Below are positions 23,143-60,794 of a DNA stretch of 64,000 nt, in pieces. The notes beneath the pieces were generated by a model, which did no database searches, was not told the DNA's origin, and saw only the letters and a list, made by a program, of their open reading frames with translations. This stretch comes from an uncultured Bdellovibrionales bacterium. Lineage in GTDB: Bacteria; Patescibacteriota; Minisyncoccia; Moranbacterales; UBA2206. Location of the stretch: NCBI GenBank assembly GCA_964636505.1, contig CAZWRY010000002.1, positions 17,248 through 81,247 of the forward strand. Reading direction: 5' to 3'. The first letter of the stretch is position 1; each line of letters starts with the position of its first letter. The position numbers and the translations under genes are program-made.

Positions 23143-23333
23143 TGCTATATTTTATTTAGAACAGAACTTACACGTTTGACAATAAAAATCTGTCTCGGAG
23201 GCGTGAATTTGAAATTGATTGTTTCATGCCGTAGCACAGATTTTTAGGGGCAAACATGTGAGTTCTTTGGAATTTGATTTTATTAAAAATAAAATTCATA
23301 TTTTATTTGATAACCAATAATACTCCAAAGAAA

Positions 23334-23366: not shown

Positions 23367-24407
23367 CTACAAATATTTTTCCAAACCCTTTTCTCTCATA
23401 TCTTTTACCAGATCTGAGATTTGGACTACTTTGTCTTTTGGAACCACTACAATCGCATCTTTGGTGTTGACCACTACCATGCCCTCCAGGCCAACAGTCG
23501 CCACGATTTTTTCATTTTCCAAATTATAGACCAAGGAATCTTTAGTTTTAAAATCAACCACATTGCCCATGACCACATTATCCTCTATCTTTTTAGCCAG
23601 CGCTTCTTTCAGAGCATAGAGTGTCCCCGGATCGCTCCAGCCCATATCCGTCTTTAAAATCACCGCGCTGGAAAGATCCACTTTTTCAATAATAGCATTA
23701 TCAAAAGATATTTTGGGCGCTTCTTCATAATTTCCTTGCGTAACTTTCCCGTAAACTTCCGGCGCCAATTTTTGATAACATTCTGTCAGAAATGAAACAG
23801 AGGTTATAAAATATCCCGGATTCCAAAAATATTCTCCCGAGGAAAAAATTTCATTGCAAACTTCTTGCTCCGGCTTGTATTTCCAACCCAAAAAAGAATA
23901 GAATTCTCTGCCCCCGATTTCTCCCGCTTTCTTTCCCAATTTCATCCAGCCCAAATTATTATTGGCAAATCTTGGTTTTTCAGCAATAAAAATAAATCTG
24001 TTTGGATTTTGCTCAATTAGTTTTTCTCCCGATTGAAGTGCCTTTTGAAATTCTTCCACTTTGTCCATTAAATGGTCCGCCCAAACAATAGCCATAGCTC
24101 CGAAATATCCCAATCCAGAAAGTTTATTGAGAGCAAAACAAACAGCTGGCCCAACATCGCGCCTGGCTGGTTCCAAAAAAATATTTTCTGCCGGCAACTC
24201 TGGCAATTGAGACTTGATATTTTCGGCATATTTTTCATTTGTCTGCACATAAATATTTTCAGCGCCAAAAACAGGCGCCACCCTTTCAAAAGCTAATTGG
24301 ATAGTAGACTTTCCATTAAAAATTTTATCAAATTGTTTTGGCGAATTTTCTCGGCTTATCGGCCAAAGCCTGGTCCCCGCCCCGCCAGCAAAAATTATAA
24401 TCTTCAT
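23367..24407 (-). CDS. Mannose-1-phosphate guanylyltransferase (GDP-mannose pyrophosphorylase).
   Basis: 346 aa; N-terminal IIFAGGAGTRLWPISR nucleotidyl-transferase signature. Confidence 0.8.
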   Translation of the reverse strand: MKIIIFAGGAGTRLWPISRENSPKQFDKIFNGKSTIQLAFERVAPVFGAENIYVQTNEKYAENIKSQLPELPAENIFLEPARRDVGPAVCFALNKLSGLGYFGAMAIVWADHLMDKVEEFQKALQSGEKLIEQNPNRFIFIAEKPRFANNNLGWMKLGKKAGEIGGREFYSFLGWKYKPEQEVCNEIFSSGEYFWNPGYFITSVSFLTECYQKLAPEVYGKVTQGNYEEAPKISFDNAIIEKVDLSSAVILKTDMGWSDPGTLYALKEALAKKIEDNVVMGNVVDFKTKDSLVYNLENEKIVATVGLEGMVVVNTKDAIVVVPKDKVVQISDLVKDMREKGLEKYL

Positions 24408-24743
24408 AGACTTTATGACTTTAGACTTGTTATCTTATGTTATAATTAAAACATAATGAACAAGAAATTAAAAGCCGAAAAACGCGAAGCCAAAAAGAAG
24501 CCTAAAATGAAAATTTCCGGCCGGAGTGTTTTTGGTTTAAAAGCAATTATCATCAAAAAGGCTAGAAAAACATCCCGACAGTAAGTTTAGTCGTATATAA
24601 TTTTAGAGGCTTATTGCAAAAAGTATAAATAGAGTTTTATTCATATCAATTCGGCTCTAAAATTATATGCAACTAAGCTTGCCTCTTGCTAATTGGAGTC
24701 AATTGACTAAATAACCTAGATATGCTAAGCTGGGATAAGTTAT

Positions 24744-32455: not shown

Positions 32456-32661
32456 ATGGATTTAAACGTATTACTTAAAAATTTAACGCACTGTTATTTT
32501 AGCATTGACAACCCAAAGCAGACAAGGGAGAATAACCATCATTCTCATTTATCTGTTTTATTATAAAAAAAGACACAAGACAAACGTTATTATTCATTTC
32601 TCAAGCGAAAGCAAAAATCGTTAAATAGGTATACTTCCAACAAAGTCAAATTATAATAATA

Positions 32662-45543: not shown

Positions 45544-45723
45544 ATGGAATTTCTCACACTTGAACAAGTGGCTAAATACTTTGGAGTTCATCCTCGCACC
45601 GTTATGCGTTGGCTTAAGCAAGGCAGTCTCAAAGGTTATAAGTTGGGCAAAGGCAAAACGGCTCTTTTACGCATCCCCAAATCAGAAGTAAGTAAATTTT
45701 TAGAAAAACATAAAATCAAATGA
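45544..45723 (+). CDS. Excisionase / MerR-like HTH DNA-binding small protein; its stop overlaps the recombinase start (ATGA).
   Basis: 59 aa, below the ORF-track cutoff: MEFLTLEQVAKYFGVHPRTVMRWLKQGSLKGYKLGKGKTALLRIPKSEVSKFLEKHKIK; helix-turn-helix_17-like. Confidence 0.55.
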   Translation: MEFLTLEQVAKYFGVHPRTVMRWLKQGSLKGYKLGKGKTALLRIPKSEVSKFLEKHKIK

Positions 45724-47360
45724 ACTCGTTGAATGATGACAAATCAATAAAGCTTATAGCCACTTACGCTCGTGTTTCTGAAAATCCTGATGATGAAGAA
45801 GGGACTATAAAAAATCAGTCAATGACTTTTAATGAATTGGCTGAAAAGAATAATTGGCAGATAATCCAAGAATATAAAGATGATGATTGGAGTGGCGACA
45901 TTTTGGAACGACCCGCACTTGATAAACTTCGGCTTGATGCAAAAAACAAAAACAGAGTTTGGGAAGCAGTCCTTATTTATGACCCAGACCGTTTGGCTCG
46001 CCGATACTCTTATCAAGAACTGGTGATGGATGAATTGCGGGAAGCAGGCATTGAGGTGATTTTTGTAACCGTTCCCGCTCCCCGAAATACTGAAGAAAAA
46101 ATAATGTATGGCTTCAAGGGCTTGTTTGCCGAGTATGAACGAGCAAAAATTGCCGAGAGATTTCGTTTAGGCAAACTTCGCAAAGCCAGAAACGGACATA
46201 TTTTGACAACACAACCTTTATACGGCTATAACTATATTCCAAAACAAGGTGATAGGCACGGCTATTATGAAATCAATCCGATAGAAGCAAGAGTTGTTAA
46301 AATGGTATTTTCTTGGATTGCTAATGACGGAATGACTTTGAGGGGCGTGGTAAAAAAATTGCACGAGTTGGGCATCAGACCACGCAAAAGCAAAAGGGAT
46401 GTTTGGAACACGGGCACATTGAGCACAATGCTTCGGCATAGAGGATATATTGGTGAGGCACACTGGGGCAGTTCGTATGCAGTTGTTCCTGAAAGGCCGC
46501 TCAAAAATGAAAAATATAAAAAAGTAAAAAAGACCAGCCGCAGGATTAGACCAAGAGAAGAATGGATAACAATTCCTGTTCCAGCAATTATTGAGACAGA
46601 ATTATTTGAAAAAGCGAACACTCAATTGCAAGCAAATTTTGCATTATGCAAACGTAACAAAAGAAATGAATATCTCTTGGCTGGTAAAATTGAATGCGTC
46701 TGTGGCAGAAAAAGAACTGGCGAAGGATATTACAATAAGCCAAATCTTTATTATCGTTGCAGTGATAGAGTGCTAAATTTTCCCTTACCATCAAAATGCA
46801 AGGAAAGAGGCATCAATGCCAGAGTAGCTGATGAGCTTGTTTGGAAAAAAATTGCAAGACTAATGAGTTCTCCAGAATTGCTGGCAGAGCAAGTCAATCG
46901 CTGGTTCAAAAACAAGCAAAGTAAAACGGGAACGGTATTGATTGATATTGAAGCTCTAAAAAAAGAAGTTGAAAAACTGGGCAAACAAGTTGAACGATAT
47001 AATAAAGGCTATGGAGTGGGAGCGTTCACTCTGGATGAGCTCAAGGAATACACTGACCCTCTACGAGAGCAAATTAGCCAGCTTCAAGCCCAAATTTCAA
47101 AAGCTACAAGTGAAAGCAATCAAACTCATCTGAAAGCACCAAATGAGCAAGAAATGGAAGCATTTGCCGAAAAAGCGAGAAAGACCCTTCAAAACTTGAG
47201 TTTTACTCTCAAACGTGCGATAATTTTAAATACTGTTGAAAAAGTAATTGCTTCAAAAGAACATTTACGGGTAAACGGTTATTTACCCCTAAATGTCTCA
47301 TTGTGTTATGAAGATAGGAATTGTAGGACTGCCGAATGTGGGCAAAAGCACTCTGTTTAA
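45720..47360 (+). CDS. Large serine recombinase (resolvase, recombinase and zinc-ribbon domains).
   Basis: 546 aa; catalytic YARVSE serine, DxxRLAR motif, recombinase domain, Cys-rich zinc ribbon (CVCGRK...CSDR), coiled coil; 3' end overlaps ychF by 50 nt. Confidence 0.88.
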   Translation: MNSLNDDKSIKLIATYARVSENPDDEEGTIKNQSMTFNELAEKNNWQIIQEYKDDDWSGDILERPALDKLRLDAKNKNRVWEAVLIYDPDRLARRYSYQELVMDELREAGIEVIFVTVPAPRNTEEKIMYGFKGLFAEYERAKIAERFRLGKLRKARNGHILTTQPLYGYNYIPKQGDRHGYYEINPIEARVVKMVFSWIANDGMTLRGVVKKLHELGIRPRKSKRDVWNTGTLSTMLRHRGYIGEAHWGSSYAVVPERPLKNEKYKKVKKTSRRIRPREEWITIPVPAIIETELFEKANTQLQANFALCKRNKRNEYLLAGKIECVCGRKRTGEGYYNKPNLYYRCSDRVLNFPLPSKCKERGINARVADELVWKKIARLMSSPELLAEQVNRWFKNKQSKTGTVLIDIEALKKEVEKLGKQVERYNKGYGVGAFTLDELKEYTDPLREQISQLQAQISKATSESNQTHLKAPNEQEMEAFAEKARKTLQNLSFTLKRAIILNTVEKVIASKEHLRVNGYLPLNVSLCYEDRNCRTAECGQKHSV

Positions 47361-48354
47361 GGCTTTAACGCGGGTAACCGTAGACATCAACAATTACCCC
47401 TTTTGCACCATTGAGCCCAATGTGGGCATTGTTAAGGTACCCGATGAACGCCTTCAAAAATTGGCTAAAATGTCGCATTCAAAAAAAATAATCCCGGCCG
47501 TGGTGGAATTTGTGGATATTGCCGGCATTGTTAAAGGCGCTTCCGTCGGCGAAGGTCTGGGTAATAAATTCCTGTCTCATATTCGCGAAGTAGATGCCAT
47601 TGCCGAAGTTGTGAGAGTTTTTAAAAATTCCAATATTACTCATGTGCACAACAAGATTGATCCGGAAAATGATATTGAAATTATCAATTCAGAATTAATG
47701 CTGGCCGACCTGGAAACCATTGGCAAAGTAAAAATCAGATTGGAAAAGGATAAGCGCGGGAATAAGAAAGGCGCTACCGAGCAATTGGAAGTTTTGGAAA
47801 AAATTCAGAAAAATTTGGAAAATGGACATTTGGCCAATGAAACAGTTTTGGATATGCAAGAAGAAAATACCCAAATCATTGTCCGCGAACTTTCACTTTT
47901 GACCATGAAACCGTTCTTGTATGTCTACAACATAGCTGATGTTAATCAAAAGTTATCAGATAGCTTGGAAAAAAGAAGCCATGTGAAATTGGATATAAAA
48001 ATAGAAGAAGAGCTTTTGGAAATGTCTCCCGAAGAAGCCACAGAAATGGAAATCAAATCATCAATTGATGGCTTGATAGTTAAGGCTTACGAAATTCTTG
48101 GGCTCATCACCTTCCTCACAACCGGCGAAGATGAAACTCGCGCCTGGACTATCCGCAAAAATTCAACTGCGCCGATAGCCGGCGCTGCTATTCATAATGA
48201 CTTCAAAGACCGTTTCATTCGAGCTGATATCATCCAATGGAACAAGCTCCTGGAAGCCAGCTCTTGGTCCAAAGCCAGAGAGATGGGAATGCTTAGGACC
48301 GAAGGCAAAGACTACATTGTCCAAGATGGAGACGTAATAGAATTTAAGATATAA
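47311..48354 (+). CDS. ychF: Ribosome-binding ATPase YchF (Obg-family GTPase).
   Basis: [18 protein letters not shown]1 motif, TGS domain at the C-terminus. The ORF track's upstream extension (47293) belongs to the overlap with the recombinase. Confidence 0.85.
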
Positions 48355-48517
48355 CTTGACCATTTCCAGACCAGATGCTAAACTAAAAACAATCTAGAAA
48401 GACCAGGATTTTCCCGCCCGGAGTATTCAGGGATAGGAAAATATTCATCCGCAAGAAATGGCTTTCTTTGAGGATTTTTTAATACTTTAAGATATAAATA
48501 TAAAGCACGAAAATATT

Positions 48518-48564
48518 GAAATGTTTTGTTTCATGTTTCATGTTCTATGTTTTATGAGTGTATG
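48518..48564 (+). repeat. NNNNATG heptamer ladder (CATGTT units) ending at the rpsF start codon.
   Basis: ATG triplets at 48521, 48533, 48540, 48547, 48554 and 48562 (spacing 12,7,7,7,8); the last is the S6 start. Confidence 0.65.
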
Positions 48565-49053
48565 AAATACGAACTGTTTTATCTAGTCGGTGTTTCGAAA
48601 GAAGCCGAACTGCCAAAAATAAAAGAAGATCTCAGAAATATCGTTTTGGAAGAAGGTGGTGTTTTTGAAGAGAAAGAAACCGAAGAAAAAAGAAAACTTT
48701 CCTATGCAATCAAACATGAAACCCATGGCATCTATATCGCCCAAAGATTTGAACTTGCTGAAAATGAAAAGATTCAAACTATCATCCGAAAAGTTAACCT
48801 TCATCCTAATGTTCTAAGATTTTTAATCAGCAAAACTAAAGATTTACCAGGGTTGAGAACCAAAGAAGAAAGAATCAAAGGATTTCCTGTTCAACCAGTC
48901 AAAGAAAAACCTGCAAAAAAATCCCCAGAAAAGTCAGTGAAAAAAATTGAAAAAACTGAAGTCCAAAAAGAAAAGACCGAGAAAGAAACCGCTAGTGAAA
49001 AAATTGACAATGAAGATATTGACAAAAAATTAGAAGAAATTTTAAATATTTAA
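48563..49053 (+). CDS. rpsF: 30S ribosomal protein S6 with a Lys/Glu-rich C-terminal extension.
   Basis: MKYELFYLVGVSKEAELPKIKEDL...; S6 fold followed by a KE-rich tail; classic rpsF-ssb-rpsR order. Confidence 0.8.
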
Positions 49054-49054
49054 T

Positions 49055-49190
49055 TTGTCCCTCACCATTTTTCAGCTGCTTACAAATAAAAAATAAATAA
49101 TTTTTGGAAATATAAATAATTATTTAATAACAACTTAATTATTAATAAAACCCTCGCCCTAGGCGAAAGCCGAAAAATGGTGAGGGACAA
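49055..49190. repeat. 19-bp perfect inverted repeat (TTGTCCCTCACCATTTTTC ... GAAAAATGGTGAGGGACAA) enclosing a 98-nt AT-rich loop between rpsF and ssb.
   Basis: Left arm 49055..49073, right arm 49172..49190; the right arm contains the ssb GAGGGA Shine-Dalgarno, 11 nt before the ATG at 49199. Confidence 0.8.
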
Positions 49191-49198
49191 GAAATATT

Positions 49199-49672
49199 AT
49201 GAATGTCAATAAAGTTCTTCTCGTGGGCCGGCTTACTCGCGATCCTGAAATAAGGACAACTGCCGGAGGCCAAAATGTCGCTTCACTTAGTTTGGCCACT
49301 AATCGTTTTTGGAAAGATAAAAATGGACAAAGACAAGACAAGACCACTTTTCATAATGTTATCCTTTGGGGAAGATTAGCTGAAATTGCAGGGCAATATT
49401 TGACTAAAGGGCAAGAAGCTTATATTGAAGGCCGCATAGAAACACGCAAATATACTGCCAAAGACGGAAGTGACCGCTATATTACGGAAATAATCGCTGA
49501 AAATATGCAGCTTGGATCGAAACCCCAGGGAGGAAACGGCGCCTATAATGCTTCAACTTCTAGGCCTGCCCAAAACACTCCGAGTGGACAAGGCTCAGCA
49601 CCCGAGGAAATCCCGACCATCAACCTGGATGAAGAGCAAGAAGAAGTAAAAATTTCAGATGTACCCTTTTAA
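49199..49672 (+). CDS. ssb: Single-stranded DNA-binding protein.
   Basis: 157 aa; OB-fold (LVGRLTRDPEIR...), Gly/Gln-rich linker, acidic C-terminal DVPF tip. Confidence 0.88.
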   Translation: MNVNKVLLVGRLTRDPEIRTTAGGQNVASLSLATNRFWKDKNGQRQDKTTFHNVILWGRLAEIAGQYLTKGQEAYIEGRIETRKYTAKDGSDRYITEIIAENMQLGSKPQGGNGAYNASTSRPAQNTPSGQGSAPEEIPTINLDEEQEEVKISDVPF

Positions 49673-49749
49673 GTAAAGATAATCACTAAATAGCACGAAT
49701 TCTATAGCTAATCATCATGATTTAGAAAAGATTCGTTATTTCAATTATT

Positions 49750-49956
49750 ATGGAAAAGAAACTTTGTTTTTTTTGTGAAAATAAACTGGATAAAATTGAT
49801 TTCAAAGATGCCTACCTTCTGCGAAGGTTTATGAATTCTCAAGGCAAAATTTATCCCCCCAAACGCCACGGCACTTGTTCCAAGCATCAAAGAACTCTTG
49901 CCAACGCCATCAAAAAAGCCCGCTTTATGGCCTTGGTTCCGTTTGTAGTTAAATAA
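49750..49956 (+). CDS. rpsR: 30S ribosomal protein S18.
   Basis: 68 aa; CFFCENK...IDFKD...LRRF...GKI motifs. Confidence 0.85.
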   Translation: MEKKLCFFCENKLDKIDFKDAYLLRRFMNSQGKIYPPKRHGTCSKHQRTLANAIKKARFMALVPFVVK

Positions 49957-49993
49957 CTTCACATAATGTGGGACATAGACTAAAAACTTGATT

Positions 49994-50038
49994 TATTTTC
50001 ATGTTATATGTTCCATGTTTTATGTTTCATGAATTATG
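49994..50038 (+). repeat. Perfect 7-nt NNNNATG ladder of six units ending at the efp start codon.
   Basis: ATG at 50001, 50008, 50015, 50022, 50029 and 50036, each exactly 7 nt apart; the last is the efp start. Confidence 0.7.
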
Positions 50039-50593
50039 TTAGGTATAAGTGAAATAAAAACAGGAAAAAACATCATTTTAAATAAAGAACCCTTCGCGGT
50101 TCTTTACCACGAACATTCTAAAACAGGCCGTGCTGGATCCGTTCTCAGAACCAGACTTCGCAACCTCTTAACAGGTGCTGTCTTGGAAAAAACATTTCAA
50201 GGCGCCGAACAAGTTACCGAAGCTGATATTACAAAATCCAAAGCTCAATTTCTCTATAAAGAAAAAGAGGTCTATTCTTTTATGGATACGGAAAACTACG
50301 ACCAATTTTCTCTTTCGTCTGAAACTTTGGGCGATGCCGTAAATTATTTAATTGAAGGCACGGAGGTCTCAGTTTTGAATTTCAATGGCAACCCGATCAA
50401 CATTGAATTGCCGGTTAAGATAAGCTTGGAAGTTATGGAAGCTCCACCCGGAATAAAAGGCAACACTGTTTCTACTGGCGGAAAAGTTGTAACTCTGCAA
50501 ACCGGACTCAAGATTTCTGCACCTCTTTTCATTAACCAAGGCGATGTCATCATCGTAAACACAGAGCGAGGAGAATATGTCGGGCGAGCCTGA
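50036..50593 (+). CDS. efp: Elongation factor P.
   Basis: 185 aa; KOW-like N-domain and two OB domains; GKG region; ...RGEYVGRA C-terminus. Confidence 0.85.
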   Translation: MLGISEIKTGKNIILNKEPFAVLYHEHSKTGRAGSVLRTRLRNLLTGAVLEKTFQGAEQVTEADITKSKAQFLYKEKEVYSFMDTENYDQFSLSSETLGDAVNYLIEGTEVSVLNFNGNPINIELPVKISLEVMEAPPGIKGNTVSTGGKVVTLQTGLKISAPLFINQGDVIIVNTERGEYVGRA

Positions 50594-50894
50594 ATCATAG
50601 AACATGCGCAACATAAAACATGCCTGCCCGCTAACGCGGGACGCAACCATGGAAACATACAACGGACTTGTTTAATTTTCTGCAATATTTTTCATCTCTT
50701 ATTTAAAGAAAAAGCCGAGCTTTGAAAAATTTTTCTCTTAAATATAAACAAAAAAACTCTGAACCAATCAGAGTTTTATTTTTATTTTCTATTTTTAAAA
50801 TATCCTTAAGCTTATTTCAATAATCTTTTTTTATTATTGTAAATATTTTTACCTCTATTATTGTTTCAAAAAAGCTTTTTGATATTTTGTTCTT

Positions 50895-51059
50895 TTATAA
50901 TATTCCGGCAGTGCTAATGAAGGTGAACACCATCACTGGGACCATGGCAACCAGAATGGCGAAGTTTCTTTCTTCTTCTCTTTTTATTTGTTTCGCCCGC
51001 TTTCGACACTCGGGACAATCTGACCCGCACCCTTCTTCTTTTTTGATATCTTCTTCCAT
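50895..51059 (-). other. Cryptic 54-codon ORF (CxxxCxxC N-terminus plus C-terminal TM helix) inside a GC-rich structured island; could equally be a small ncRNA.
   Basis: Minus-strand ATG...TAA translates to MEEDIKKEEGCGSDCPECRKRAKQIKREEERNFAILVAMVPVMVFTFISTAGIL. It has no clear SD and uses GC-rich codons atypical for the genome. Confidence 0.25.
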
Positions 51060-51154
51060 GTTGTTTTTTGTTTCCGCATGAGGCGCCTTCCTGCCGGTAT
51101 GCAGGGATTCGCCTTGGTTGGAAAAAATTACTAATTAAGCCTGGATTTAACACT

Positions 51155-51192
51155 AAAAAATAAAAAAGCGGGAATTCACCCGCTCCTTTTTT
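51155..51192 (-). terminator. Rho-independent terminator of recA (bidirectional).
   Basis: AGCGGG AATTCA CCCGCT flanked by A-run and T-run. Confidence 0.7.
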
Positions 51193-51249
51193 AGCTTCTT
51201 CTGCACTACATTATAATTATACACCTAAGCGCCTTAAAAGTCAATGTTT

Positions 51250-52254
51250 TTAATCCTGCGCGTCTTCTTTTTCTTTCATCTTTTCATAAATTTTTTTGGA
51301 AATTTCTTTCATCAGCTTCCCATCACTTTTGATGGCTGCCTTGGCTGCCTCGCGTCCTACGCCCAATTTTGTTTCTCCAAAAGAATACGAGTTACCCTTT
51401 TTATCAATTGCTTCAAGTTTGACTCCGGTATCCAAAATATCTCCGGAAGCGGAAACTCCTTCATTATACATGATATCAAATTCGGCTGTCTTGAAAGGCG
51501 GCGCTACTTTATTTTTTACAATCTTGACTTTCACTCTGTTGCCAACGATATCTTCGCCTTTTTTTATTTGCGCCGATCGCCTGACTTCAATGCGCACGGA
51601 AGAATAAAATTTAAGAGCGTTTCCGCCGGTAGTCGTTTCCGGATTTCCAAAAACAATTCCAATTTTCATTCTGATCTGATTGATAAAAATAACCGTGCAA
51701 TTTGATTTAGCCACAATAGCCGTGAGTTTCCTAAGAGCTTGAGACATTAGCCTGGCCTGCCTGCCCATATGCTGGTCTCCCATCTCACCCTCAATTTCTG
51801 CTTTGGGCACCAGAGCCGCTACAGAATCAACGACAATAACACTCACGGCTCCGGAATTAACTAAAGTTTCCACAATATCCAAAGCTTGCTCTCCGTTATC
51901 CGGCTGGGAAATAAGCAAATCTTTAATATTAACACCTATTCTTTTGGCATATTCAGGATCAAGAGCATGTTCAGCATCAATAAAAGCAGCTACACCTCCG
52001 GCTTTTTGCGCATTGGCAATAATATGTAAAGTTAAAGTTGTCTTTCCGGATGATTCAGGCCCATAAACTTCAATTATCCTGCCACGTGGAATGCCGCCAA
52101 TTCCTAGAGCGATATCCAAAGAAATTGAACCGCTCGGAATAGATTCAACATCAACTTTTTTAACATTACCAAGTGTCATAATAACCCCTTCACCGAATTT
52201 GTCTTTTATTTGTTCCACAACTGTACTGATAGCCTTGTTTTGTTCTTCTTTCAT
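51250..52254 (-). CDS. recA: Recombinase RecA.
   Basis: 334 aa; Walker [11 protein letters not shown]1/L2 loops, typical RecA sequence. Confidence 0.95.
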
Positions 52255-53311: not shown

Positions 53312-53382
53312 TTAAACTTTTCAATCCTTATGAAATCTATAGAATTTATAAACTTTACGAACTTTATAAGCTTTTAGCTTCT

Positions 53383-60640: not shown

Positions 60641-60780
60641 ATTATAAATAAATTTTCAAATCTCAATTTTCAATTTTCAATCAATGATCAATTTTCAATT
60701 TTTTAATTTCAAAAATTTAGTCATTGAATCATTGGAAATTGTTTAGAAATTAGAAATTAGAAATTAGAAATTTGTTAATC
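60641..60780. repeat. AT-rich heptamer tandem arrays (TCAATTT x about 5, then ATTGGAAATTG plus AGAAATT x4) filling the rpoB-rpoC spacer.
   Basis: Direct reading; shares the 11-mer ATTGGAAATTG and AGAAATT units with the uvrC-internal element. Confidence 0.75.
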
Positions 60781-60794
60781 AAAAAATTCATTGC

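What the first reader, a model, noticed from the sequence alone, without database searches (positions are those of the whole stretch)
49994..50038. Start-codon ladder: six ATGs spaced exactly 7 nt apart ending at the efp initiation codon
The efp leader is TTTCATG TTATATG TTCCATG TTTTATG TTTCATG AATTATG. Each unit ends in ATG, so ATGs cycle through all three frames. The in-frame one at 50015 opens a 5-codon uORF that stops 3 nt before the real start. An almost identical ladder precedes rpsF (48518..48564). Inverted CATGTT units follow the efp stop (50594..50660) and appear upstream of uvrB (23221..23262). This looks like a dedicated translational-control or ribosome-loading leader for translation-apparatus genes, or a regulator-binding array with an AACATGTT-like palindromic core.
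Basis: seen in the sequence. Interest (0 to 1): 0.7.

Follow-up and report, generated by a model that had tools for sequence, protein, structure and literature searches.

The report
ATG-studded heptamer repeat before efp
The six evenly spaced ATGs before efp are real, but they are one arm of a 7-base tandem-repeat hairpin element of a kind that fills the gaps between genes throughout this candidate-phylum (Moranbacteria) lineage, so this is a conserved but patchily placed variant of known start-codon-proximal heptamer repeats, not a dedicated switch for translation genes.

Summary
The ladder is real. ATGs sit at 50001, 50008, 50015, 50022, 50029 and 50036, and the last is the efp start. A four-ATG ladder pattern gives 4 matches against 0.01 expected. 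A sister array precedes rpsF, and an inverted AACAT array follows the efp stop. The uvrB site is chance.

The window comes from a Shine-Dalgarno-poor Moranbacteria (CPR) genome. In 227 kb of this lineage, period-7 tandem arrays number 42 against 1.0 expected, and period-8 arrays 20 against 1.4. They fall into several unit families. Most form two inverted arms that fill the spacer from the upstream stop codon to the downstream start codon.

The ladder is the start-proximal arm of the ATGTT/AACAT family. That family recurs before rpsF, ssb, efp, rpmB and rplT in relatives. Where it is present it evolves more slowly than third codon positions. It is nonetheless lost, degraded or replaced by another family in close relatives, and similar arrays precede unrelated genes elsewhere.

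The invariant core is ATGTT, not a palindrome. There is no copy-number variation among strains and no signature of selection on the sense RNA fold.

Best reading: a selected spacer element that affects initiation of the downstream cistron. This is a new variant of the known start-proximal heptanucleotide repeats. The mechanism is inferred, not shown.

The parts
49997..50038 (+). efp ATG ladder. Six heptamer units (TTTCATG TTATATG TTCCATG TTTTATG TTTCATG AATTATG); the last ATG is the efp start. This is the start-proximal (3') arm of an ATGTT/AACAT-family repeat element.
   Evidence: orthologous 6-ATG ladder with an intact partner arm in L217 and L210
49960..49996 (+). Decayed 5' arm and loop of the same element (cacataatgtgggacatag...). 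It is predicted to pair with the first two ladder units.
   Evidence: hairpin 49960-50009; whole 121-nt region z = -2.05; aligns to the intact AACAT arm of L217
50036..50593 (+). efp coding sequence. Codons 5-11 are complementary to ladder units 3-5, giving a predicted alternative hairpin at 50010-50066 with the start codon in its loop.
50594..50622 (+). AACAT-type array directly after the efp stop (CAT at 50596, 50603, 50612, 50619). It is the reverse complement of ladder units and has the form of a 5' arm without a local 3' arm.
   Evidence: conserved and more regular in L216
50623..50643 (+). Small GC-rich hairpin (cccgc-taac-gcggg) that interrupts the AACAT array.
   Evidence: a similar GC hairpin sits inside the AACAT arm of the L216 rpsF-ssb spacer
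50644..50665 (+). Two further AACAT-type units (CAT at 50648 and 50656) that continue the array beyond the GC hairpin.
48527..48564 (+). rpsF ATG ladder (TGTTTCATG TTTCATG TTCTATG TTTTATG AGTGTATG). ATGs at 48533, 48540, 48547, 48554 and 48562, the last being the rpsF start. Same family as the efp ladder.
   Evidence: orthologous ladder in L216 identical at 34 of 38 positions with all ATGs kept; also in L008, L014 and L015
48477..48526 (+). Decayed 5' arm and loop facing the rpsF ladder. One CACGAAA unit survives. The predicted imperfect hairpin 48477-48567 includes the start codon.
   Evidence: z = -1.75; intact CACGAAA-type arm in L014, L015 and L008
48356..48479 (+). Promoter-like site (48356-48384) followed by a conserved structured leader RNA (48396-48479) that ends in a terminator-like stem and a U-run. 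Together they place the rpsF ladder inside a 5' UTR of about 170 nt.
60641..60794 (-). rpoB-rpoC spacer filled by a heptamer-repeat hairpin of another family (AATTTCT x4.3 / TTGAAAA x7.9 on the coding strand). Same class of element, without ATG.
   Evidence: conserved in L211 and L212

Best explanation
What it is (shown). The ladder is the start-codon-proximal arm of a palindromic spacer element built from tandem heptamers. The core is ATGTT followed by two free bases, and the opposite arm carries AACAT. It is one of several families of 7-8-nt tandem-repeat hairpins. In Moranbacteria these fill the spacer from the upstream stop codon, or the 5' leader, to the downstream start codon. In this strain the 5' arms at rpsF and efp have decayed, so the 3' arm stands out as a bare ATG ladder.

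How it most likely works (inferred). The element is transcribed as part of the rpsF 5' UTR and of the rpsR-efp spacer in a genome that almost lacks Shine-Dalgarno sequences. It probably acts in cis on initiation of the downstream cistron in three ways. First, the hairpin brings the upstream stop or leader close to the start. Second, the unpaired, U-rich, AUG-studded end of the 3' arm gives incoming or terminating ribosomes a landing zone. Third, the short upstream ORFs are closed at or just past the true start (TGA 3 nt upstream for efp), so ribosomes can re-initiate and no N-terminally extended EF-P is made.

It is not a regulon-specific operator. The ATGs belong to the repeat core. They have not been shown to be selected as start codons.

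The confidence of 0.45 is for the whole statement. The identity part alone I would put at about 0.85 and the mechanism at about 0.35.
For: Identity:
- Period-7 arrays number 42 against 1.0 expected, and period-8 arrays 20 against 1.4, in 227 kb of Moranbacteria DNA.
- 67 of 85 arrays are intergenic, and the unit families recur across species.
- Orthologous spacers hold two-armed hairpins with folding energies of -25 to -42 kcal/mol that end 3-12 nt before the start.
- L217 and L210 show the intact form of the efp element.

Transcribed position: a conserved promoter and a covarying leader RNA lie upstream of the rpsF ladder.

Selection:
- The rpmB hairpin is 89-100% identical and the 8-nt-unit efp leader 91-99% identical between species whose efp third codon positions are 57-83% identical.
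- The window and L216 rpsF leaders are 80% identical and their ladders 89% identical, against 59% at third positions.
- All 8 differences between the window and L217 efp ladders fall on unit positions 3-4 (p = 2e-6). None falls in ATG (p = 0.005).
- The ladder is identical in 9 strain-level contigs from different samples.

Link to starts:
- Every sense-strand ladder in 289 kb abuts a protein start (rpsF, ssb, efp, rpmB, rplT).
- In L013 the same unit family has ACG instead of ATG in the arm that faces the tmRNA gene.
- Only 4 of 48 genes have an SD-like motif.
- The uORF stops lie at -6, +5 and +15 relative to the efp ATG.

Precedent: heptamer repeats directly upstream of SD-less start codons, including inside r-protein operons, have been described in Beggiatoaceae and Nostoc.
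Against: - There is no expression or ribosome data, so every mechanistic step is inferred.
- The hairpins show no sense-strand signature. G-U pairs number 58 in the sense folds and 72 in the antisense folds. Sense is the more stable strand in 11 of 28 spacers.
- The ATGTT core is just as conserved in AACAT arms that face no start codon.
- The uORF-relay idea does not generalise. The 8-nt unit family contains TAA stops within its units, and L013 and the window's rpsF lack an in-frame stop before the start.
- Most relatives express efp with a 0-30-nt spacer and no element, so the element is dispensable.
- Near-identical stop-to-start spacers sit between different gene pairs in single genomes. 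A strain or assembly breakpoint lies at the ladder edge. Both fit a mobile or recombining repeat.
Confidence: 0.45

Rival explanations
1. Selfish or mutational repeat with no role. On this view the arrays arise by heptamer slippage and spread or recombine as MITE/REP/STRR-like palindromes into stop-to-start junctions. The ATGs and their register with the start are by-products of the unit sequence and of very short spacers.
For: - Many unit families populate the same spacers.
- Different families occupy the orthologous rpsR-efp spacer in different species, and many species have an empty 0-30-nt junction there.
- Near-identical copies run from stop codon to start codon between different gene pairs in L013 and L012, with TAA on both flanks in L013.
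- A breakpoint lies exactly at the ladder edge in L210.
- Both arm orders occur in other phyla, before all kinds of genes.
- There is no sense/antisense asymmetry.
- Mrazek et al. 2007, as summarised in PMC4679880, proposed that 5-11-nt repeats simply tend to expand.
Against: - Orthologous elements are far more conserved than third codon positions.
- Substitutions are confined to two of the seven unit positions.
- Nine strain-level contigs show no copy-number change.
- In this strain the 3' arm keeps six perfectly spaced ATGs while the 5' arm has decayed.
- No transposase or target-site duplication was found for the ATGTT family.
Confidence: 0.25
2. Transcript-level hairpin. On this view the two-armed elements act as partial terminators or attenuators, or as RNase III/Y/J processing and stability determinants that set the relative amounts of the cistrons. 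The ATGs are incidental.
For: - Strong hairpins fill the spacers of the rpsF-ssb-rpsR-efp operon and the rpoB-rpoC spacer.
- Several elements enclose a GC-rich terminator-like stem between an A-rich arm and a U-rich arm (L004 5557-5649, L001 5685-5804, L096, and window 50594-50665).
- The window encodes RNase J, and relatives encode RNase Y.
Against: - There is no G-U bias toward the sense strand.
- In this strain the 5' arms are decayed and the predicted folds are only marginally better than shuffles (z = -1.75 and -2.05).
- The ladder arm is often longer than its partner arm, which leaves unpaired units next to the start.
Confidence: 0.15
3. On this view the ladder is a dedicated control element for translation-apparatus genes. 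A trans-acting factor, for example a ring-shaped RNA-binding protein reading triplets 7 nt apart as HutP does, or the ribosome itself, would recognise the N4-ATG array and co-regulate a regulon.
For: - In the sampled Moranbacteria DNA, ATG-bearing families were seen only before rpsF, ssb, efp, rpmB and rplT. In a more distant Patescibacteria locus (L030) one precedes a gene for a 23S-rRNA-intervening-sequence-type protein.
- Array-bearing spacers before rpoC, hupA and rodZ carry other families.
- Within the window, the ladder precedes 2 of 5 translation-related genes and 0 of about 50 others.
- COG J was over-represented downstream of TAACTGA repeats in Beggiatoaceae.
Against: - Sampling was centred on efp, and the two window loci belong to one gene cluster, so the enrichment has not been tested without bias.
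- rpsR, trpS and ychF lack the ladder.
- Presence shifts between spacers in close relatives.
- CPR-like metagenome contigs carry the same unit before an antiporter and before unknown genes.
- No candidate binding protein was identified.
Confidence: 0.12
4. DNA-level operator or promoter. On this view the ladder is an array of binding sites with a palindromic AACATGTT-like core, or a row of -10-like hexamers (TATGTT, TAATAT) that drives short-leader transcripts.
For: - TATGTT and TAATAT/TAAAAT fit the TAnnnT pattern of a -10 hexamer.
- In the 8-nt unit family, each such hexamer sits 6 nt before the next ATG (read).
- CATG is a 4-bp palindrome.
Against: - Half of the units are TATG, so CATG is not conserved, and AACATGTT does not occur in the arrays.
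- Perfect TTTCATG arrays (L014, L015) contain no TAnnnT hexamer.
- The rpsF ladder lies downstream of a conserved promoter and leader RNA.
- A 7-bp spacing does not place the sites on one face of the DNA helix (own knowledge).
Confidence: 0.03

Closest known systems
Start-codon-proximal TAACTGA heptamer direct repeats of marine Beggiatoaceae, some cyanobacteria and Bacteroidetes (MacGregor 2015, PMC4679880)
   Same: Both are tandem 7-nt units in forward orientation within a few nucleotides of the start codon. The downstream genes usually lack a Shine-Dalgarno site. Repeats occur inside ribosomal-protein operons, and translation genes are over-represented downstream. A translational role is proposed but untested.
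   Different: The unit differs (YATGTTN against TAACTGA). Here each unit carries an ATG, and the gene's own start falls roughly in register. The arrays here usually have an inverted partner arm, whereas 169 of the 170 BOGUAY repeat sets are direct. Several unit families coexist here. The host is a small-genome CPR bacterium.
Cyanobacterial short tandemly repeated repetitive (STRR) heptanucleotide sequences and the Nostoc TTTTGAA/TTCAAAA heptamer repeats
   Same: Both are dispersed intergenic tandem heptamers of several families, often near start codons or promoters. Deleting them changed reporter output for recO and recF in the Nostoc preprint 10.1101/2022.06.06.494920. The STRR families themselves (Mazel et al. 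1990) are cited from my own knowledge.
   Different: The unit sequences differ. STRR repeats have no reported ATG phasing with the start codon. No stop-to-start palindromic architecture has been described for them, as far as I know.
Long simple sequence repeats with 5-11-nt units (Mrazek et al. 2007, as summarised in PMC4679880)
   Same: Period 7 is the dominant class, and the repeats are mostly intergenic.
   Different: From my own recollection of that paper, those repeats were reported mainly in large genomes and were judged likely to reflect a general tendency to expand. Here the genome is small, the arrays are imperfect, they are stable among strains, and they are more conserved than third codon positions.
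REP/BIME elements and bacterial MITEs such as Correia elements (own knowledge)
   Same: Both are imperfect palindromes dispersed in intergenic spacers, co-transcribed with the flanking genes, and present as near-identical copies at several loci in one genome.
   Different: The arms here are internally tandem-repetitive. No GTAG-type conserved head, no RAYT or other transposase, and no clear target-site duplication was found for the ATGTT family. Copy number per genome is unknown.
Triplet-repeat RNA targets of ring-shaped regulators: HutP (UAG-N4, period 7) and TRAP (GAG/UAG with 2-3-nt spacers) (own knowledge)
   Same: Both have a conserved triplet with short free spacers, repeated about six times in a leader RNA. 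The period of 7 matches HutP sites.
   Different: The conserved core here has five bases (ATGTT), not three. No terminator/antiterminator pair overlaps the array. No HutP- or TRAP-like gene was seen. Many other unit families share the same architecture.

Membership tests
Heptanucleotide tandem repeats (LSSR 5-11 nt / STRR-like) | At least 3 head-to-tail copies of a 7-nt unit, beyond chance | tested here: met
   Tandem Repeats Finder reports arrays at 49997-50031 (5.0 copies) and 48527-48556 (4.3 copies). The 4-ATG ladder pattern gives 4 matches against 0.01 expected.
Heptanucleotide tandem repeats (LSSR 5-11 nt / STRR-like) | Lineage-wide excess of period-7 arrays, mostly intergenic, in several unit families | tested here: met
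   Period-7 arrays number 42 against 1.0 expected from local shuffles, and 7 in 254 kb of non-CPR control DNA. 67 of 85 arrays are intergenic.
Start-proximal heptamer repeats (TAACTGA type, MacGregor 2015) | Forward-oriented repeats ending within a few nucleotides of the start codon of genes without an SD site | tested here: met
   The last array ATG lies 3-7 nt before the true start, or is the start itself, in 14 cases listed. Only 4 of 48 genes have an SD-like motif, and neither rpsF nor efp has one.
Start-proximal heptamer repeats (TAACTGA type, MacGregor 2015) | Unit sequence TAACTGA | tested here: not met
   The units here are TTYYATG, with core ATGTT. The resemblance is therefore one of kind, not membership of the TAACTGA family.
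Start-proximal heptamer repeats (TAACTGA type, MacGregor 2015) | Over-representation upstream of translation genes | tested here: inconclusive
   In the window the ladder precedes 2 of 5 translation-related genes against 0 of about 50 others, but both loci lie in one cluster. The loci from relatives were sampled around efp.
Phase-variable contingency repeats | Copy number varies between closely related strains | tested here: not met
   Nine contigs that are 99.6-99.98% identical and come from different samples carry identical ladders and an identical trailer array.
REP/BIME or MITE | Near-identical palindromic copies at several intergenic sites in one genome, with terminal repeats and a target-site duplication or an associated transposase | tested here: inconclusive
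   The TACGAA-type families meet the first criterion, with L013 and L012 copies identical from stop codon to start codon and TAA on both flanks in L013. For the ATGTT family the copies are diverged and no duplication or transposase was found.
Structured cis-regulatory RNA (Rfam families, r-protein leaders) | Match to a curated covariance model, or covariation that supports a sense-strand fold | tested here: not met
   Rfam gave no match at gathering score or at E <= 10 over 48300-51300. G-U pairs number 58 in sense folds and 72 in antisense folds. The separate element at 48396-48479 does covary, but it is not the ladder.
HutP/TRAP-type triplet-repeat protein-binding site | A conserved triplet with free spacers that overlaps a terminator/antiterminator, plus the cognate protein gene | tested here: inconclusive
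   The conserved core is 5 nt, not 3. No overlapping terminator was found. Whether a binding protein exists cannot be tested from 64 kb.
Leader-peptide or uORF attenuator | Conserved upstream peptide or regulatory codons | tested here: not met
   The uORF peptides (MLYVPCFMFHELC, MFHVLCFMNYVRYK, MFYVS) change with the unit family and the period. The 8-nt family stops after 4 codons.

The most novel reading that the evidence does not exclude
The ATG-bearing hairpin families could be self-propagating 'initiation cassettes'. On this reading, palindromic heptamer-repeat elements copy themselves into stop-to-start junctions of operons in Shine-Dalgarno-poor CPR bacteria. They then become hard to remove because they supply the downstream cistron's initiation zone. 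The hairpin would bring the terminating ribosome next to an AUG-studded landing pad that hands it on to the true start. That would be an SD-independent coupling mechanism carried by a mobile repeat.
Probability: 0.1. Interest if true: 0.8.

Novelty: new variant of a known kind. Interest (0 to 1): 0.45.

Why it matters
CPR/Patescibacteria make up a large share of bacterial diversity, have tiny genomes, and mostly lack Shine-Dalgarno sites. How their ribosomes find internal start codons in operons is largely unknown.

This case shows that the spacers of core operons (rpsF-ssb-rpsR-efp, rpmB, infC-rpmI-rplT, rpoB-rpoC) are occupied by tandem-heptamer hairpins that are more conserved than third codon positions. 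In one family, every unit carries an ATG that runs into the true start.

If these elements tune initiation or coupling, they are a tractable entry point to SD-independent initiation. They would also help explain the long-unexplained start-proximal heptamer repeats of Beggiatoaceae and cyanobacteria.

There is a practical consequence too. The ladders mislead gene callers into N-terminal extensions. rpsF was called at 168 aa here, and several EF-P homologues were called with extensions such as MPHVSCF- or MLHASCS-. The ladders also coincide with assembly or strain breakpoints.

Tried and rejected
- Rfam at gathering score on the whole window, and at E <= 10 on 48300-51300, found nothing for the ladder or for the rpsF leader.
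- The palindromic-operator idea was rejected. CATGTT is not enriched, half of the units are TATG, and AACATGTT is absent from the arrays.
- The uvrB site is a single 9-mer plus one hexamer.
- Phase variation was rejected, because nine strain-level contigs are identical.
- The test for an RNA-sense signature was negative. I compared sense and antisense folding energy and G-U pair counts over 25-28 spacers.
- The idea that uORFs relay ribosomes to the start does not generalise. The 8-nt family has internal TAA stops, and L013 and the window's rpsF lack an in-frame stop before the start.
- The idea of a row of -10 hexamers fails for perfect TTTCATG arrays and for the rpsF ladder, which lies downstream of a conserved promoter.
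- The order of the two arms cannot serve as evidence that the ATG arm must face the gene. Each family has a fixed arm order, and both orders occur in other phyla.
- The ATG-versus-ACG contrast in L013 (efp and rplT against tmRNA) is suggestive, but it rests on three hairpins and could arise by chance about 1 time in 8.
- Exact look-ups of the window's RpoC and of P0001 failed. Contigs of the RpoC relatives at 92-93% identity did not reach efp.
- Pairing of the efp leader with the efp trailer across the gene (13 nt exact) is expected between any two arrays of one family, so I did not treat it as evidence of a gene-spanning stem.
Full report
**Observation**

The sequence is as described. ATGs lie at 50001, 50008, 50015, 50022, 50029 and 50036. 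The units are TTTCATG TTATATG TTCCATG TTTTATG TTTCATG AATTATG. Tandem Repeats Finder reports a period-7 array at 49997-50031. The last ATG opens a 185-aa ORF with the three EF-P domains.

A ladder of four ATGs spaced 7 nt apart occurs four times in the window, only here and before rpsF. Shuffles predict 0.01.

The in-frame ATG at 50015 gives MFYVS followed by TGA at 50030-32, which is 3 nt before the start. The other two frames stop at 50040-42 and 50050-52.

The rpsF array is real but less regular. Its ATGs sit at 48521, 48533, 48540, 48547, 48554 and 48562. The ATG at 48547 is in frame with rpsF with no intervening stop, and public gene callers used it, giving a 168-aa product.

After the efp stop there is an array of the complementary unit, with CAT at 50596, 50603, 50612 and 50619. 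It includes an exact 13-nt reverse complement of leader positions 50014-50026.

The uvrB site is one 9-mer and one hexamer, which is chance level. CATGTT as a hexamer is not enriched in the window: 28 found against 35 expected.

**Context**

EF-P relatives identify the organism as a Candidatus Moranbacteria (Patescibacteria/CPR) bacterium. GC content is 37.6%.

The local gene order is ychF, rpsF, ssb, rpsR, efp, then recA on the other strand. Only 4 of 48 genes have an SD-like 4-mer at -20 to -4, and neither rpsF nor efp does.

A promoter-like site (TTGACC-17-TAAACT, 48356-48384) is conserved in relatives. So is the 84-nt element that follows it, which carries compensatory base changes. Together they place the rpsF ladder inside a 5' UTR of about 170 nt.

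**The ladder belongs to a class of repeat elements**

In 227 kb of Moranbacteria DNA (the window plus 27 species representatives), period-7 arrays number 42 and period-8 arrays 20. No other period exceeds 8. Local shuffles predict 1.0 and 1.4. A 254-kb non-CPR control has 7 and 1. 67 of 85 arrays are intergenic.

The arrays fall into recurring unit families:
- CATGTTT/AAACATG, the family of the ladder.
- TACGAAN/NTTCGTA.
- CACGTAA/TTATGTG.
- The 8-mers CATTTTAA/TTAAAATG.
- AATTTCT/TTGAAAA.
- TATAAAGT, and others.

The typical architecture is a hairpin. One arm starts at or just after the upstream stop codon. A short loop follows. The complementary arm ends 3-12 nt before the downstream start. 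Predicted energies are -25 to -42 kcal/mol.

In the window the same class fills the rpoB-rpoC spacer (60641-60794). Weaker examples lie at 24407-24428 and 53313-53374. The rpsF-ssb spacer is filled by a 23-nt, 96% complementary palindrome. The ssb-rpsR spacer keeps a single ACGAAT...ATTCGT pair at the position where L008, L012 and L013 have a full TACGAA-type hairpin.

**The intact form of this element**

L217 (EF-P 86% identical) has the complete element between rpsR and efp. After the stop codon TAA comes the arm cttt-CATGCAA-CATTTAA-CATGGAA-CATATAA, then a T-rich loop, then the arm TTTTATG-TTGCATG-TTGTATG-TTTCATG-TTATATG-AATTT-ATG, whose last ATG is the efp start.

L210 is 99.6% identical to the window from position 49988 onward. 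Upstream of that point it carries a tRNA gene. It also has a clear 5' arm and six ATGs.

In the window the 5' arms at both efp and rpsF are decayed. The predicted folds are only marginally better than shuffles, with z = -2.05 and -1.75. This is why the 3' arm looks like a free-standing ladder.

**Recurrence and turnover**

Sense-strand ladders, defined as at least 4 ATGs spaced 7-8 nt apart, were inventoried in 289 kb of CPR DNA. All of them abut protein starts:
- rpsF: window, L008, L012, L014, L015, L016.
- ssb: L008, L014, L015.
- efp: window, L012-L016, L030.
- rpmB: L008, L012, L014-L016.
- rplT: L013. A further ladder before rplT was seen in L020.

The antisense hits are the partner arms.

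L016 and L012 carry the 8-nt family at the rpsF leader where L014 and L015 carry the 7-nt family. So the sequence was replaced but the ATG-bearing arm was kept.

Presence is nevertheless patchy. Only 6 of 27 species representatives have an ATG ladder before efp. Many have a 0-30-nt junction there with no element. The nearest relatives differ from one another:
- L216 (EF-P 88%) keeps the rpsF ladder and the AACAT array after efp, but its efp arm is degraded.
- L217 (86%) has ladders at efp and ssb and none at rpsF.
- L212 (EF-P 84%, RpoC 88%) has the ladder only at ssb, and a GTTGTTT-family hairpin at efp.

**Selection**

Where the elements are orthologous, they change more slowly than third codon positions:
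- The rpmB hairpin is 89-100% identical between species pairs whose efp third positions are 57-70% identical.
- The 8-nt efp leader is 91-99% identical against 59-83%.
- The window and L216 rpsF leaders are 80% identical over 100 nt, and the ladders match at 34 of 38 positions, against 59% at rpsF third positions.
- The rpoB-rpoC spacer of the window and L212 is 83% identical against 55%.

Between the window and L217 efp ladders, all 8 differences fall on unit positions 3 and 4. The probability of that is 2e-6. The probability that all 8 miss the ATG positions is 0.005. The invariant core is therefore ATGTT, not ATG alone. The same core is kept as AACAT in arms that face no start codon.

Nine strain-level contigs from different samples have identical arrays. 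These are therefore not phase-variable repeats.

**Tests that did not support an RNA-level or ATG-specific reading**

- Sense and antisense folds of array-bearing co-directional spacers are equally good. Sense is better in 11 of 28 cases. G-U pairs number 58 in sense folds and 72 in antisense folds.
- The in-frame stop before the true start is present at efp here and at rpsF in L014 and L015. It is absent at rpsF here and at efp in L013.
- The 8-nt family has stops inside its units, so a general uORF relay is excluded.
- In L013 the arm of the CACGTAA family that faces the tmRNA gene has ACG, while the arms that face efp and rplT have ATG. That fits a start-codon role, but it rests on only three hairpins.

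**Signs of mobility or recombination**

- In L013, two spacers (rpsF-ssb and infC-rpmI) are nearly identical from the stop codon TAA through to ...GGTAAAATT-ATG, with TAA on both flanks.
- In L012, two spacers on either side of ssb are nearly identical in the same way.
- L210 breaks from the window exactly at the edge of the ladder. L210 is a low-coverage contig, so this could be an assembly join across a repeat.

**Beyond CPR**

The contigs ranged from 23% to 69% GC and carried (ATGTTGA)n, (ATGTTCA)n, (ATGTTGG)n and similar arrays. Many had an inverted partner arm, in either order. They preceded unrelated genes, including LeuRS, RecG, ExoIII, a YigZ-like gene and a cation antiporter.

ATG-bearing heptamer arrays next to start codons are therefore widespread. 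They are not specific to translation genes.

**Comparison with what is known**

- Heptanucleotides are the commonest long simple-sequence repeats in many bacteria (Mrazek et al. 2007, as summarised in PMC4679880).
- TAACTGA repeats lie directly upstream of SD-less start codons in marine Beggiatoaceae, including inside r-protein operons, with COG J over-represented downstream. A translational role was proposed but not tested.
- Heptamer repeats near start codons in Nostoc altered reporter output when deleted (preprint).
- Cyanobacterial STRR repeats are the classical example (own knowledge).

The present case shares the kind of element. It differs in four respects: the unit sequence, the ATG phasing with the start codon, the palindromic stop-to-start architecture, and the host lineage.

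**Verdict**

The identity of the ladder is well supported. It is the start-proximal arm of a selectively maintained heptamer-repeat spacer element.

Its function is inferred. I consider a cis effect on initiation or coupling of the downstream SD-less cistron the most likely role. A selfish repeat, a transcript-level hairpin and a dedicated regulon are the rivals, in that order.

The 'dedicated to translation genes' idea remains untested without bias.

Noticed in passing
window 48356-48479: A conserved promoter-like site (TTGACC-17-TAAACT) is followed by an 84-nt structured element (AGAAAGNCC...CTCGC...GATAAG...GGCTTTCTT...GGATTTTT) upstream of rpsF. 10 of 14 predicted pairs show compensatory changes across 8 species, and the element ends in a terminator-like stem plus a U-run. 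It has no Rfam match. It is a candidate S6/S18-type ribosomal-protein leader or attenuator for the rpsF-ssb-rpsR operon.
   Followed up: partly
window about 32533/34148 to 47283: Strain-level contigs join ychF directly to window position 32533 (L201) or 34148 (L202). The 13-15 kb in between is therefore a strain-variable island. It ends in a large serine recombinase gene (45720-47360) next to ychF.
   Followed up: partly
L013 1982-2094 and 5114-5225; L012 2013-2108 and 2595-2693: Near-identical hairpin spacers sit between different gene pairs in the same genome. The identity runs from the upstream stop codon to the downstream ATG, and in L013 a TAA lies on both flanks. This suggests MITE-like insertion into stop-start junctions, or homogenisation between copies.
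   Followed up: partly
window 60641-60794 (between rpoB and rpoC): The spacer is filled by a heptamer hairpin (AATTTCT x4.3 / TTGAAAA x7.9 on the coding strand). It is 83% identical to the spacer of a relative whose rpoC third codon positions are only 55% identical. The start-proximal arm carries a TTG every 7 nt.
   Followed up: partly
window 49055-49190: The rpsF-ssb spacer is spanned by a 23-nt, 96% complementary inverted repeat. It starts 2 nt after the rpsF stop and ends 8 nt before the ssb start. It is not heptamer-based. L212, L217 and L014 carry an ATG-ladder hairpin at this position instead.
   Followed up: partly
window 50623-50643; L216 about 1299-1322: A small GC-rich hairpin is inserted inside an AACAT-type array in two different spacers of two species. 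This recalls the very small elements reported inside cyanobacterial heptamer arrays (own knowledge).
   Followed up: no
L210 1-423: This contig is 99.6% identical to the window from 49988 onward, but upstream it carries a tRNA gene and an intact AACAT arm instead of rpsR. It is either a strain rearrangement or an assembly join across the repeat, given its coverage of 0.35.
   Followed up: partly
L030 2300-3003: A more distant Patescibacteria locus has arms of 10-13 units of 8-mers (ATGAGAGC/ATGGGAGC facing TCCAATGY). They flank a gene for a 23S-rRNA-intervening-sequence-type protein and run into the efp start.
   Followed up: no
EF-P homologues P0128, P0213, P0217, P0231, P0236: Public gene calls give these proteins N-terminal extensions such as MPHVSCF-, MLHASCS- and MLCVPYSMI-. 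These are translations of ATG ladders. They point to more ladders before efp in other species and to a systematic start-codon annotation error.
   Followed up: partly
window about 50900-51065, minus strand: An unannotated small ORF of about 55 aa, read by eye, has a Cys-rich N-terminal part and a hydrophobic tail. It lies in the 656-nt efp-recA spacer, and similar sequence is visible downstream of efp in L008.
   Followed up: no
L217 about 1340-1460 and 2575-2700: A different, GC-richer repeat (...tcccatcttgtcatctcgagcg...ggaatgacaataat) is inserted both in the rpsF leader and in the ssb-rpsR spacer of this relative. This is another dispersed element that targets the same operon spacers.
   Followed up: no
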